Source: a virus
Length of the DNA: 64,000 nucleotides
IMG/VR virus record: IMGVR_UViG_3300045988_181996
Strand: one strand, 5' to 3'
Below, one piece after another: positions 34,995 through 35,275 of this stretch. The position numbers and the translations under genes were made by a program. Under the pieces are notes generated by a model. It did no database searches. It was not told the DNA's origin and worked only from the letters and a program-made list of their open reading frames with translations. Positions within the stretch are counted from its first letter, which is position 1, and the number at the start of each line of letters is the position of its first letter.

Positions 34995-35275
34995 ACAAAT
35001 TGGACATAAATAAATGGACAAAAAATAACTATTGGACAAATAAAAAAATAACAACAGACCTCTAAAAGATAGATGTACCAAGGGATTGGACAAAATGGAC
35101 AAAATGGACGGATATTTTAACAAACTCTTTATATATTTTTTATATTTTTTCTAGTGAAGTTTATAAAAAAAGTGTCCAAAGTGTCCAAAGTGTCCTAATC
35201 ATAGATGTACCAAGAGGTAAGACGATTGGACAAAATAAAAAAAATGTCCAATAATTTAAATTTTGTCCACAAAAC
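34995..35275. promoter_or_regulatory. cluster of >=10 TTGGACA / TGTCCAA heptamers in both orientations plus two TAGATGTACCAAGRG boxes, upstream of the relaxase operon
   Basis: Seen in sequence. 150-430 bp upstream of the 34845 start. Confidence 0.6.

What the first reader, a model, noticed from the sequence alone, without database searches (positions are those of the whole stretch)
34995..35275. Dense TTGGACA/TGTCCAA heptamer cluster upstream of relaxase operon
At least ten copies of a 7-bp site occur in both orientations within ~280 bp, plus two TAGATGTACCAAGRG boxes. The cluster lies 150-430 bp upstream of the first gene of the relaxase/topoisomerase/ClpB operon. It is a likely multi-site operator (autoregulation or partition-like spreading) or an alternative oriT.
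Basis: seen in the sequence. Interest (0 to 1): 0.55.

Follow-up and report, generated by a model that had tools for sequence, protein, structure and literature searches.

The report
Iteron array beside a replication helicase
The TTGGACA cluster is a real, strongly non-random array of protein-binding repeats around an AT-rich core; it follows the neighbouring SaPI-like replication helicase gene rather than the relaxase operon, so it is most likely a helicase-loading replication origin, not an operator or oriT.

Summary
Observation confirmed. Ten exact TGGACA cores, plus two degenerate ones, lie in 35000-35270. About 0.06 are expected (P~1e-19), and no other 281-bp window has more than 2. Both TAGATGTACCAAGRG boxes are present.

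Anatomy: two convergent triplets in strict 9-bp register (35086-35110 +, 35173-35197 -) flank a 57-bp core that is 88% AT. Six further units lie outside the triplets.

The array sits between a terminator of the upstream operon (35371-35402) and a conserved TGnTATAAT promoter of the relaxase operon (34878-34886). It overlaps neither.

In every relative carrying the helicase/147-aa gene pair with enough downstream sequence to judge, the array follows that pair. This holds in L054, where no relaxase operon follows. In one helicase lineage the unit changes to TTGGAT while phase and layout are kept. Near-identical arrays in unrelated, even high-GC, bacteria lie beside DUF927, AAA_25 or MCM primase/helicase genes.

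Best reading (~0.5): a SaPI/P4-type iteron origin. Caveats: related elements carry extra copies ahead of unrelated operons, GC skew shows no turn here, and the binding protein is unidentified. Rival (~0.28): a global operator or centromere-like array. oriT is unlikely.

The parts
35086..35110 (+). Left inner triplet of iterons, TTGGACAAA ATGGACAAA ATGGACG, in 9-bp register and pointing toward the AT-rich core
   Evidence: Conserved in all relatives.
35113..35169 (.). 57-bp core, 88% AT (the intergenic region as a whole is 74% AT), with the conserved block TTTTTTCTAGTGA; candidate DNA-unwinding element
   Evidence: composition. (sequence conserved across loci). A spacer of similar length is present in L054 and L058.
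35173..35197 (-). Right inner triplet, GTGTCCAAA GTGTCCAAA GTGTCCT (the complement of TGGACA units), in 9-bp register and convergent with the left triplet
   Evidence: The 23-mer is shared with 18 low-GC metagenome loci.
35000..35038 (+). Three outer units on the relaxase-operon side: TTGGACA 35000, ATGGACA 35014, TTGGACA 35032
35226..35270 (.). Three outer units on the helicase side: TTGGACA 35226 (+), TGTCCAA 35245 (-), TGTCCAC 35264 (-)
35070..35084 (+). Box 1, TAGATGTACCAAGGG, abutting the left triplet. The gene-ward complement CCCTTGGTACATCTA has counterparts in relatives (CCCTTGATACAACTA, CGTTGATATAACAA, CCGTTGGTATGACTGA). Role unknown; possibly a site for an auxiliary factor.
35202..35216 (+). 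Box 2, TAGATGTACCAAGAG, next to the right triplet. It is not conserved at this position in most relatives, and in L054 the equivalent box is inverted.
36050..37900 (-). 616-aa D5-like SF3 helicase (Pfam DUF5906); candidate initiator that loads at the array
35591..36034 (-). 147-aa basic protein with no known family, always encoded between the helicase gene and the array; alternative candidate for the array-binding protein
   Evidence: Only 7 cluster representatives among 1.84 billion proteins. AF2 model unreliable, pLDDT 57.
35371..35402 (-). Intrinsic terminator of the helicase/147-aa operon: hairpin GGUCUAAU/AUUAGAUC followed by U9
   Evidence: Equivalent terminator in L001 at 1586-1612. Conserved block in alignment A6.
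34878..34886 (-). Extended -10 promoter element TGTTATAAT of the 264-aa/MobL/ClpB operon (-35-like CTTGTTT at 34901-34907, RBS at 34854-34861). It lies outside the array.
   Evidence: TGnTATAAT is invariant in 6 loci from 3 lineages. Coordinates.
34051..34845 (-). 264-aa ORF with no known family; first gene of the relaxase operon and downstream neighbour of the array in this lineage only
   Evidence: Not adjacent to the array in L054.

Best explanation
The cluster is an iteron array with the layout of a replication origin for a self-loading helicase, of the SaPI/PICI and phage P4 kind.

Proposed mechanism:
- A lineage-specific DNA-binding module recognises the (T/A)TGGACA(A/C) units. Candidates are a C-terminal domain of the adjacent 616-aa D5/PriRep5-like SF3 helicase, or the 147-aa protein encoded between the helicase gene and the array.
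- The two convergent triplets, in 9-bp register, position two oppositely oriented protein assemblies on either side of the 57-bp, 88% AT core.
- The core is melted so that helicase hexamers can load.
- The outer units and the two boxes add cooperative or auxiliary binding.

Shown here: the array and its layout, its conservation, its linkage to the helicase gene pair, the change of unit sequence with helicase lineage, and the fold of the helicase.

Inferred: which protein binds, that melting and loading occur, and that the site supports replication.

It need not be the main origin of the whole element. It could be a secondary or transfer-associated origin.
For: (1) Layout. There are 12 short units. 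Three on each side of an AT-rich centre point in opposite directions. This is how SaPI origins are described: 6-12 five- or six-nucleotide iterons just downstream of rep, an AT-rich region near the centre, and at least two iterons on each side pointing in opposite directions. They are bound by a winged-helix C-terminal domain of an SF3 or MCM-type self-loading Rep (PMC9371898).

(3) Linkage. Twelve loci show helicase, 147-aa-like gene and array together (L001, L024, L029, L045, L047, L053, L054, L055, L057, L058, L059, L060). L004, L012 and L043 also carry the array, and the part of the hit table that was printed shows the 147-aa-like gene only for L004. In L054 the downstream genes are MucBP and a topoisomerase instead of 264-aa/MobL.

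(4) Co-variation. In the L057/L058 helicase lineage (54% identity) the units read TTGGAT(T/A), yet the 9-bp phase and the triplet-spacer-triplet layout are kept.

(5) Independent sample. Arrays found only by the 23-mer TGTCCAAAGTGTCCAAAGTGTCC in unrelated organisms lie beside replication genes:
- Toprim+DUF927 primase-helicase: L051 (Skermanella), with homologues in L008, L020 and L044.
- AAA_25 with or without HTH: L049 (Methylocella, with an integrase), L009 (with a DnaG-like primase), L040.
- MCM: L035 and L013.
L049 has an AT-rich stretch next to 7 tandem units in a 56% GC locus.

(6) Position. The array lies in a gap between a terminator and the next promoter and overlaps neither.
Against: (a) Related low-GC elements carry additional, nearly identical modules with no helicase gene in the few kb held. 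Each lies at the head of an unrelated operon. In every case with a readable downstream gene (L021, L022, L034, L046) the orientation relative to that gene is the same. Cases: L021 (two copies 3.8 kb apart), L022 (two in tandem), L023, L025, L034, L046, L019, L005. An origin has no obvious reason to behave this way. P4's second iteron site crr and iteron control arrays of plasmids are partial precedents, recalled from memory.

(b) GC skew is negative across the whole 64-kb window, with no turn at 35 kb and no switch of gene strand there. This is not the skew-defining bidirectional origin.

(c) The array is not immediately after the helicase ORF. A 147-aa gene, about 190 bp of conserved structured DNA and a terminator intervene.

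(d) No binding protein is identified. The putative winged-helix region of the helicase model (residues 481-530) was not tested separately, and its sequence does not visibly change in the TTGGAT lineage.

(e) The helicases beside the look-alike arrays in other phyla show no homology to this one beyond the Walker A motif. The shared unit sequence may be coincidence produced by my query.
Confidence: 0.5

Rival explanations
1. Global operator or centromere-like array. An element-encoded DNA-binding protein, for example the 147-aa protein, coats arrays of 9-bp-phased units placed ahead of several operons. It would co-ordinate their expression, position the element in the cell, or both. Analogues, all recalled from memory: omega protein on heptad arrays in pSM19035; StbA on the 9-bp stbDR repeats next to oriT and at other promoters of R388; KorB of RK2; RepC on the TAGTARRR arrays of pAD1.
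For: - Multiple near-identical modules in related elements. Wherever a downstream gene can be read, orientation relative to it is the same, and some modules end about 25 bp before its RBS (L034, L046), so any promoter for those genes must lie inside or upstream of the module.
- A -10-like hexamer (TAAAAT, TATAAT, TAGAAT, TATAAA, TATATT) recurs at a similar place in the AT-rich core, facing the downstream genes, in four diverged lineages (my reading of the alignments).
- The unit changes with the lineage of the adjacent 147-aa gene as much as with that of the helicase.
- Secondary modules are variable. The window lacks one after its RHH gene, whereas L021 has one there.
Against: - In the window the array does not overlap the conserved TGnTATAAT promoter of the relaxase operon, which is 114 bp away.
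- In L054 the scan places the best-placed sigma-70-like match for the downstream gene about 390 bp past the array.
- Sigma-70 scans find no more promoter-like sites in the modules than in shuffles, and none conserved toward the genes.
- No ParA, ParM or TubZ partner was found among the window ORFs scanned.
- This reading does not explain why look-alike arrays in other phyla sit beside primase/helicase genes.
Confidence: 0.28
2. oriT, or relaxosome accessory-factor sites, for the MobL relaxase. Accessory proteins such as the 264-aa product would bind the repeats and bend DNA so that the relaxase can nick nearby.
For: - The array lies upstream of a MobL-family relaxase operon. In pLS20 the MobL oriT lies within the conjugation operon near the relaxase gene, is intrinsically bent, and uses two RHH auxiliary proteins (PMC5313138; PMC5675868, title seen).
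- A conserved hairpin-rich region with an invariant GCATGCAC lies about 200 bp away, at roughly 35480-35535.
Against: - The array stays with the helicase pair when the relaxase operon is not adjacent (L054).
- The modules found away from the helicase pair and the look-alike arrays in other phyla have no relaxase in the few kb examined.
- There is no inverted repeat with an adjacent conserved nic-type sequence inside the array. The pLS20 nic context, GC-rich next to GGCTTTTTGC..GCAAAAAGCC, has no counterpart here.
- The most conserved nearby 16-mer (CCTATTTGTCGTGGTC) is part of a terminator hairpin.
Confidence: 0.06
3. A mobile, MITE-like repeat, or a cluster of host DnaA boxes, with no dedicated element-encoded partner.
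For: - About 330-bp modules with fairly sharp shared boundaries are dispersed in related elements, and many contigs end inside them.
- The units TTGTCCA(A/C)A resemble the DnaA box TTATCCACA at 7-8 of 9 positions (my comparison; consensus from memory).
Against: - I saw no terminal inverted repeats or target-site duplications.
- Orientation is not random.
- The unit's near-invariant A at the position of the critical C8 of the DnaA box, together with 9-bp head-to-tail packing, does not fit DnaA arrays.
- The unit changes to TTGGAT in one lineage of the same kind of element, which points to an element-encoded partner rather than a host factor.
Confidence: 0.06

Closest known systems
SaPI/PICI replication origins with self-loading Rep helicases (SaPI1 Rep1, SaPI5 PriRep5, SaPIbov1 Rep)
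   Different: Not immediately after the helicase ORF: a 147-aa gene and a terminator intervene. The host is a large conjugative element (T4CP, MobL, AgI/II adhesins), not a phage satellite. No primase domain was recognised in the 616-aa protein. Units are packed in a strict 9-bp register. Extra copies of the whole module occur elsewhere in related elements. Binding and replication are untested.
Phage P4 alpha protein with ori and crr (from memory)
   Same: An SF3 primase-helicase with an origin-binding domain that recognises short octamer iterons in both orientations. A second iteron-bearing site (crr) lies kilobases from ori, a precedent for more than one module per replicon.
   Different: P4 iterons are TGTTCACC. 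Alpha is a single polypeptide with a primase domain. P4's two sites are fixed partners, not heads of unrelated operons. No sequence homology was tested.
Omega/heptad arrays of pSM19035 and StbA/stbDR arrays of R388 (from memory)
   Same: Arrays of 7-9-bp units in direct and inverted orientation. Several arrays per element, placed ahead of operons. In R388 an array lies next to the transfer region. Dual roles as operator and centromere.
   Different: Those arrays overlap promoters and are bound by small RHH or HTH proteins encoded beside a partition or transfer function. Here the array overlaps no recognised promoter in the window, no partition NTPase is nearby, and the conserved neighbour is a replicative helicase.
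pLS20 oriT (MobL family)
   Same: Adjacent to a MobL-type relaxase operon; AT-rich, repeat-bearing DNA.
   Different: The pLS20 nic site lies in a 73% GC stretch beside a perfect 10-bp inverted repeat (PMC5313138). Nothing comparable lies in the array, and the array separates from the relaxase operon in L054.

Membership tests
SaPI/P4-type iteron origin for a self-loading helicase | Six or more short (5-8 nt) iterons | tested here: met
   10 exact TGGACA cores plus 2 degenerate ones in 270 bp, P~1e-19
SaPI/P4-type iteron origin for a self-loading helicase | AT-rich centre with at least 2 iterons on each side in opposite orientation | tested here: met
   Triplets at 35086-35110 (+) and 35173-35197 (-) flank a 57-bp, 88% AT core. 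Criterion taken from PMC9371898.
SaPI/P4-type iteron origin for a self-loading helicase | Lies directly downstream of the rep helicase gene | tested here: inconclusive
   Same strand and same locus in all relatives, but the first unit is 780 bp past the helicase stop, with a 147-aa gene and a terminator between. Linkage to the helicase pair is conserved.
SaPI/P4-type iteron origin for a self-loading helicase | Neighbouring protein is an SF3 (or MCM) replicative helicase | tested here: met
SaPI/P4-type iteron origin for a self-loading helicase | Iteron sequence matches the specificity of its own Rep (co-variation) | tested here: inconclusive
   One lineage (L057/L058) changes the unit to TTGGAT with the layout kept. 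That is only one switch, and it cannot separate the helicase from the 147-aa protein.
SaPI/P4-type iteron origin for a self-loading helicase | Rep C-terminal winged helix binds the iterons; the site melts and supports replication | not testable with these tools
   The model shows a strand-strand-helix-helix-strand-strand segment at residues 481-530.
Skew-defining bidirectional origin of the whole element | GC-skew extremum and switch of gene strand at the site | tested here: not met
   GC skew is negative in every 2-kb bin and the cumulative curve is monotonic. Genes are on the minus strand on both sides.
Operator overlapping the promoter of the relaxase operon | Binding sites overlap -35, -10 or the transcription start | tested here: not met
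   The conserved TGnTATAAT lies at 34878-34886. The nearest unit starts at 35000.
Global operator / regulon (KorB-, omega-, StbA-like) | The same array ahead of several operons of one element | tested here: inconclusive
   True in related contigs (L021, L022, L034, L046). The 64-kb window holds a single module (nhmmer), and co-residence on one replicon with the helicase is unproven.
Plasmid centromere (type Ib/II/III) | Array adjacent to genes for a partition NTPase and a centromere-binding protein | tested here: not met
   No ParA, ParM or TubZ family hit in any window ORF scanned
oriT of a MobL/MOBP-type relaxase | Inverted repeat with an adjacent conserved nic sequence; co-inherited with the relaxase | tested here: not met
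   No such element lies inside the array. The array is separated from the relaxase operon in L054. pLS20 nic context.
oriT of a MobL/MOBP-type relaxase | Nicked by the relaxase; confers mobilisation | not testable with these tools
   Needs a nicking or mobilisation assay
DnaA-box cluster | Units match TTATCCACA, especially CACA at positions 6-9 | tested here: not met
   Units are TTGTCCAAA or GTGTCCAAA, with A instead of C at position 8. Only 35262-35270 reads TTGTCCACA (consensus from memory).
Known RNA family / structured RNA | Match to an Rfam model | tested here: not met
   No Rfam hit in 34700-35800 apart from a chance-level E=4.7 match

The most novel reading that the evidence does not exclude
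The roughly 250-330-bp TGGACA module is a portable helicase-loading cassette that these large, very AT-rich conjugative elements of the human microbiome carry in several copies. Under this reading one D5/PriRep5-like helicase can be loaded at many places on one replicon: a bacterial multi-origin element, or dispersed priming and loading sites all oriented with the transferred strand. Alternatively, rep-less hitchhiking segments mimic the origin. The recurrence of the same 9-mer and the same layout beside unrelated helicase families (DUF927, AAA_25, MCM) in other phyla would then point to a shared, still unrecognised origin-recognition principle rather than coincidence.
Probability: 0.12. Interest if true: 0.8.

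Novelty: new member of a known kind. Interest (0 to 1): 0.45.

Why it matters
The window comes from a large (relatives reach over 200 kb), 27% GC conjugative element that is absent from PLSDB and, by the two queries run, from 185,579 species-representative genomes. Most of its proteins have no family.

Locating a probable helicase-loading origin and its candidate initiator gives an experimental handle on the element. A minimal replicon could be tested, and it offers a way to determine host range and copy control.

The result also corrects the natural assumption that repeats upstream of a relaxase operon are oriT or its operator.

The dispersed secondary modules raise a testable question: does a self-loading SF3 helicase act at several sites on one bacterial replicon?

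Tried and rejected
- PLSDB: megablast of 33000-38000 and tblastn of the 264-aa protein found nothing. MobL has only distant hits of 29% identity or less.
- Rfam and tRNA scans of the region: nothing relevant.
- Genome-contig scan with the 264-aa alignment: no relative. The second scan, with the 23-mer, found only unrelated organisms, but these proved informative.
- Viral contigs: one unrelated hit.
- Literature search for the motif strings: no relevant paper.
- Pfam, NCBIfam and PHROGs for the 147-aa and 264-aa proteins: no family.
- AF2 of the 147-aa protein: pLDDT 57, so it was not used for a fold search. An exhaustive profile search shows the family is confined to this group of elements.
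- The RHH protein next to a module in L021 was considered as the binder. Its 74% homologue in the window (14403-14684) has no array nearby, so it was rejected.
- The '+ strand promoter TTGACA-17-TATAAA driving a small RNA' idea at 35364 was rejected. The sequence is the A-run and stem of a minus-strand terminator.
- A circular 3.8-kb plasmid reading of L021 was rejected. Its two ends are 97% identical, not identical, so these are two copies.
- A single-stranded-DNA hairpin (Frpo-like) reading was not supported. Fold z-scores are -3.1 and -3.5. By my own reading, that is about what inverted binding sites alone would give. The two unit types (GGACAC versus GGACAA) are conserved as non-complementary.
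- Profile comparison of the helicase family with the Skermanella and Methylocella helicases: no homology beyond Walker A.
- Sigma-70 scans: no excess and no conserved promoter inside the modules.
- Identification of the element as an 'Inocle' was considered and could not be tested. Inocle-delta averages 24% GC, and some related contigs carry accession prefixes (BNJ*) that I take, from memory, to be DDBJ-issued.

Full report
**1. The observation**

The intergenic region 34846-35590 lies between two minus-strand genes: a 147-aa ORF (35591-36034) and a 264-aa ORF (34051-34845).

- The exact heptamer TTGGACA/TGTCCAA occurs 7 times between 35000 and 35251, out of 12 in the window.
- The 6-bp core TGGACA occurs 10 times in 35001-35270, out of 23 on both strands of the 64 kb.
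- Two degenerate units (ATGGACG at 35104, TGTCCTA at 35191) complete two triplets, giving 12 sites.
- The background rate predicts 0.057 copies in 281 bp, so Poisson P is about 1e-19. No other 281-bp window has more than 2 copies. Markov simulations of the region's own composition reach 4 at most.
- Both TAGATGTACCAAGRG boxes exist, at 35070 and 35202, both on the + strand.
- The sites at 12010-12023 (TTGGACATGTCCAA) lie inside the TnpB ORF 11924-13102. The same TGGACATGTCCA lies in the TnpB of L022, whose protein reads W-T-C-P there.

**2. Anatomy**

- The centre is two convergent triplets in strict 9-bp register: TTGGACAAA ATGGACAAA ATGGACG (35086-35110, +) and GTGTCCAAA GTGTCCAAA GTGTCCT (35173-35197, units on the minus strand).
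- They enclose a 57-bp core (35113-35169) that is 88% AT, against 74% for the whole intergenic region.
- Three more units lie on each outer side.
- A hairpin followed by a U9 run at 35371-35402 (minus strand) is an intrinsic terminator for the upstream operon. Relative L001 has a terminator at the same place with a different stem.
- On the other side, an extended -10 element TGnTATAAT is invariant in six loci from three lineages. In the window it sits at 34878-34886, 17 nt ahead of the RBS.
- The array therefore occupies a gap between a terminator and the next promoter, and its nearest unit is 114 bp from the -10.
- Sigma-70 scans of the window and of three relatives find no more promoter-like sites than shuffles, and none conserved toward the genes.

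**3. Surroundings**

The window is 27% GC. It encodes conjugation functions:

- a T4 coupling protein
- a SecA-like ATPase
- AgI/II and SSSPR surface proteins
- a MobL relaxase
- a ClpB-like ATPase
- a type IA topoisomerase
- two SSBs
- two TnpB genes

Most of its other ORFs have no family.

PLSDB has nothing similar, and neither query run against the species-representative genomes found a relative.

The gene two places upstream of the array (36050-37900) carries DUF5906. An AlphaFold model built from 8 homologues has pLDDT 73.7.

- Foldseek matches ASFV PrimPol and poxvirus E5/D5 at E~1e-8.

It is a D5-like SF3 replicative helicase.

The 147-aa protein between the helicase gene and the array has a basic N-terminus and no family. 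It has only 7 cluster representatives among 1.84 billion proteins. Its model is unreliable.

**4. Relatives**

The 264-aa protein has 4 homologue clusters among 5.8 billion. Locus L001 (76% identity) has the same intergenic design, with 18 exact TGGACA cores and diverged flanks.

An exact-match scan of the metagenome collection with the 23-mer of the right triplet returned 45 loci. Of these, 18 are low-GC. Sixteen of them (15 loci, one with two copies) carry the full-length ~250-bp module; L019 and L005 hold it cut by a contig end.

Loci fetched through homologues of the helicase gave four key results.

- **(i) Linkage.** Twelve loci show the helicase, the 147-aa-like gene and an array downstream (L001, L024, L029, L045, L047, L053-L055, L057-L060). 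L004, L012 and L043 carry the array with the relaxase operon; the printed part of the hit table shows the 147-aa-like gene only for L004.
- **(ii) L054.** The order is T4CP, AgI/II, helicase, 154 aa, 96 aa, array, MucBP protein, topoisomerase. The array is kept although the 264-aa/MobL operon is not there.
- **(iii) Unit change.** In the L057/L058 lineage (helicase 54% identical) the units read TTGGAT(T/A): TTTGGATTT, CGTGGATTT, ATTGGATAC ... ATCCAATTT, ATCCAATTC. The 9-bp phase, the triplet-spacer-triplet layout and a box are kept.
- **(iv) Distant relative.** A 32%-identical helicase in a 42% GC contig (L056), which has no 147-aa-like gene, has no such array.

The array is therefore tied to the helicase/147-aa pair, and its sequence follows their lineage.

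**5. An independent sample**

The same 23-mer also hit unrelated organisms. Where the array is dense and the flanks are readable, the neighbour is a replication gene.

- **Skermanella aerolata (L051, 62% GC).** The array lies just after a 975-aa Toprim+DUF927 primase-helicase. Homologues occur in L008, L020 and L044.
- **Methylocella MAG (L049).** Seven tandem units and an AT-rich stretch lie just after a 672-aa AAA_25 protein with a C-terminal HTH. An integrase is about 4 kb away.
- **L009.** 24 units lie between an AAA_25+HTH helicase gene and a DnaG-like primase gene.
- **L040.** The neighbours are AAA_25 and a DUF6371 protein with a zinc ribbon.
- **L035/L013.** The neighbour is an MCM helicase.

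Sources.

In L051 the order of orientations resembles that of the window family.

These helicases are not detectably homologous to the window's helicase beyond Walker A. The identical unit may be a coincidence selected by my query. The sample still shows what arrays of this form usually accompany.

**6. Interpretation**

The published description of SaPI origins is as follows (PMC9371898):

- 6-12 five- or six-nucleotide iterons just downstream of rep
- an AT-rich region at the centre
- at least two iterons on each side pointing in opposite directions
- recognition by the winged-helix C-terminal domain of an SF3 or MCM-type self-loading helicase

This fits the array, its neighbour's fold, the lineage-specific unit and the helicase classes seen in the independent sample.

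I therefore read the cluster as an iteron origin, or helicase-loading site, of the SaPI/P4 kind, with confidence about 0.5.

- **Shown:** the array, its layout, its conservation, its linkage, the unit change, and the helicase fold.
- **Inferred:** the identity of the binding protein (a helicase C-terminal domain or the 147-aa protein), melting of the core, and replication.

**7. What does not fit**

Related low-GC contigs carry further, nearly identical modules with no helicase gene in the few kb held.

- L021 has two copies 3,828 bp apart. They are 97% identical, so this is not a circularisation artefact.
- L022 has two copies in tandem ahead of a surface-protein gene.
- L034, L025 and L046 have them within or ahead of a multigene family whose products all begin MENLHLKNL.
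- L023, L019 and L005 also carry one.

In every case with a readable downstream gene (L021, L022, L034, L046) the orientation relative to it is the same. In L034 and L046 they end about 25 bp before the RBS.

These contigs come from related elements: they share the window's RHH gene and TnpB. The window has only one module and none after its RHH gene.

This pattern suits a global operator or centromere-like array. Analogues from memory are omega on heptads, StbA on stbDR and KorB. I keep this as the main rival at 0.28.

GC skew is negative across the whole window with no turn at 35 kb. If the site is an origin, it is not the one that shapes the skew.

**8. oriT and other readings**

oriT is unlikely (0.06), for these reasons.

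- The array separates from the relaxase operon in L054.
- No inverted repeat with a nic-type sequence lies in it.
- The pLS20 nic context has no counterpart here.
- The most conserved nearby sequence belongs to a terminator.

A hairpin-rich block with an invariant GCATGCAC at about 35480-35535 remains unexplained. If the element's oriT lies in this region, I think that block is the better place to look for it.

The DnaA-box and MITE readings are weak. The unit mismatches the key position of the DnaA box, it changes with element lineage, and no transposon ends were seen.

**9. Novelty and value**

The kind of feature is known. This member is new, in a poorly known family of large AT-rich conjugative elements from human-associated metagenomes. 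The sample names and the oral/gut origin are my inference from the record names.

The dispersed secondary modules are the unusual part and deserve follow-up.

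Noticed in passing
window 16652-16961, 26232-26472 and 26569-26706: Three large tandem arrays of 13-bp units: CCTTAGTTGTTCT x 23.8, TTGTTACCCCTAG x 18.5 (these two share TAGTTGTT), and TTATATAAACACC x 9.9. They bracket the only plus-strand gene block (17-26 kb, which holds the two SSB genes). They look like further protein-binding arrays, either centromere or iterons.
   Followed up: partly
L005, L019, L021, L022, L023, L025, L034, L046 (coordinates): Near-identical copies of the whole TGGACA module with no helicase gene in the DNA held, at the heads of unrelated operons. L021 has two copies 3.8 kb apart and L022 has two in tandem. Many contigs end inside the module, which suggests it is a multi-copy repeat in those assemblies.
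   Followed up: partly
L051 583-873 (Skermanella aerolata NZ_AVFK01000041), L049 800-1101 (Methylocella MAG), L009 3819-4160, L040 3867-4381, L035 573-1000: Arrays of the same 9-mer (GTGTCCAAA/TTTGGACAC) in 9-bp phase and both orientations, in unrelated and partly high-GC bacteria. Each lies beside a primase/helicase gene of a different family (DUF927, AAA_25, MCM).
   Followed up: partly
window 35425-35545 (minus strand): A hairpin-rich block between the 147-aa gene and the terminator. GCATGCAC is invariant in the W/L045 and L001-like loci, and the outer stem differs on both sides between those two lineages (ATACCC/GGGTAT versus ACACCTAT/ATAGGTGT). Its function is unknown. It is a candidate for the real oriT nic region or for a structured RNA.
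   Followed up: partly
window 35371-35402 and 34878-34907 (minus strand): An intrinsic terminator of the helicase/147-aa operon, and a conserved extended -10 promoter (TGTTATAAT, with -35-like CTTGTTT) for the 264-aa/MobL/ClpB operon.
   Followed up: yes
window 11803-11887 (minus strand): An Rfam RAGATH-18 RNA (69 bits) lies immediately downstream of the TnpB gene 11924-13102. I take it to be the TnpB guide (omega) RNA. A second TnpB gene is at 38-1276.
   Followed up: no
window 12010-12023: A perfect 14-bp palindrome, TTGGACATGTCCAA, lies inside the TnpB ORF. The same TGGACATGTCCA lies in the TnpB of L022, whose protein reads W-T-C-P there. I take it to be unrelated to the array.
   Followed up: yes
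L034 29-4105, L046 9239-11590, L025 140-470: A multigene family of otherwise dissimilar proteins that all begin MENLHLKNL, arranged in tandem in related elements. None is present in the window.
   Followed up: no
window 14403-14684 (minus strand): A ribbon-helix-helix protein (93 aa) 74% identical to the one encoded next to a module in L021. No array lies near it in the window.
   Followed up: yes
whole window; L004, L012, L043: The element is about 27% GC, with relatives on 187-223-kb contigs. I could not test whether it belongs to the recently described 'Inocle' giant oral elements, whose delta group averages 24% GC (PMC12340149).
   Followed up: partly
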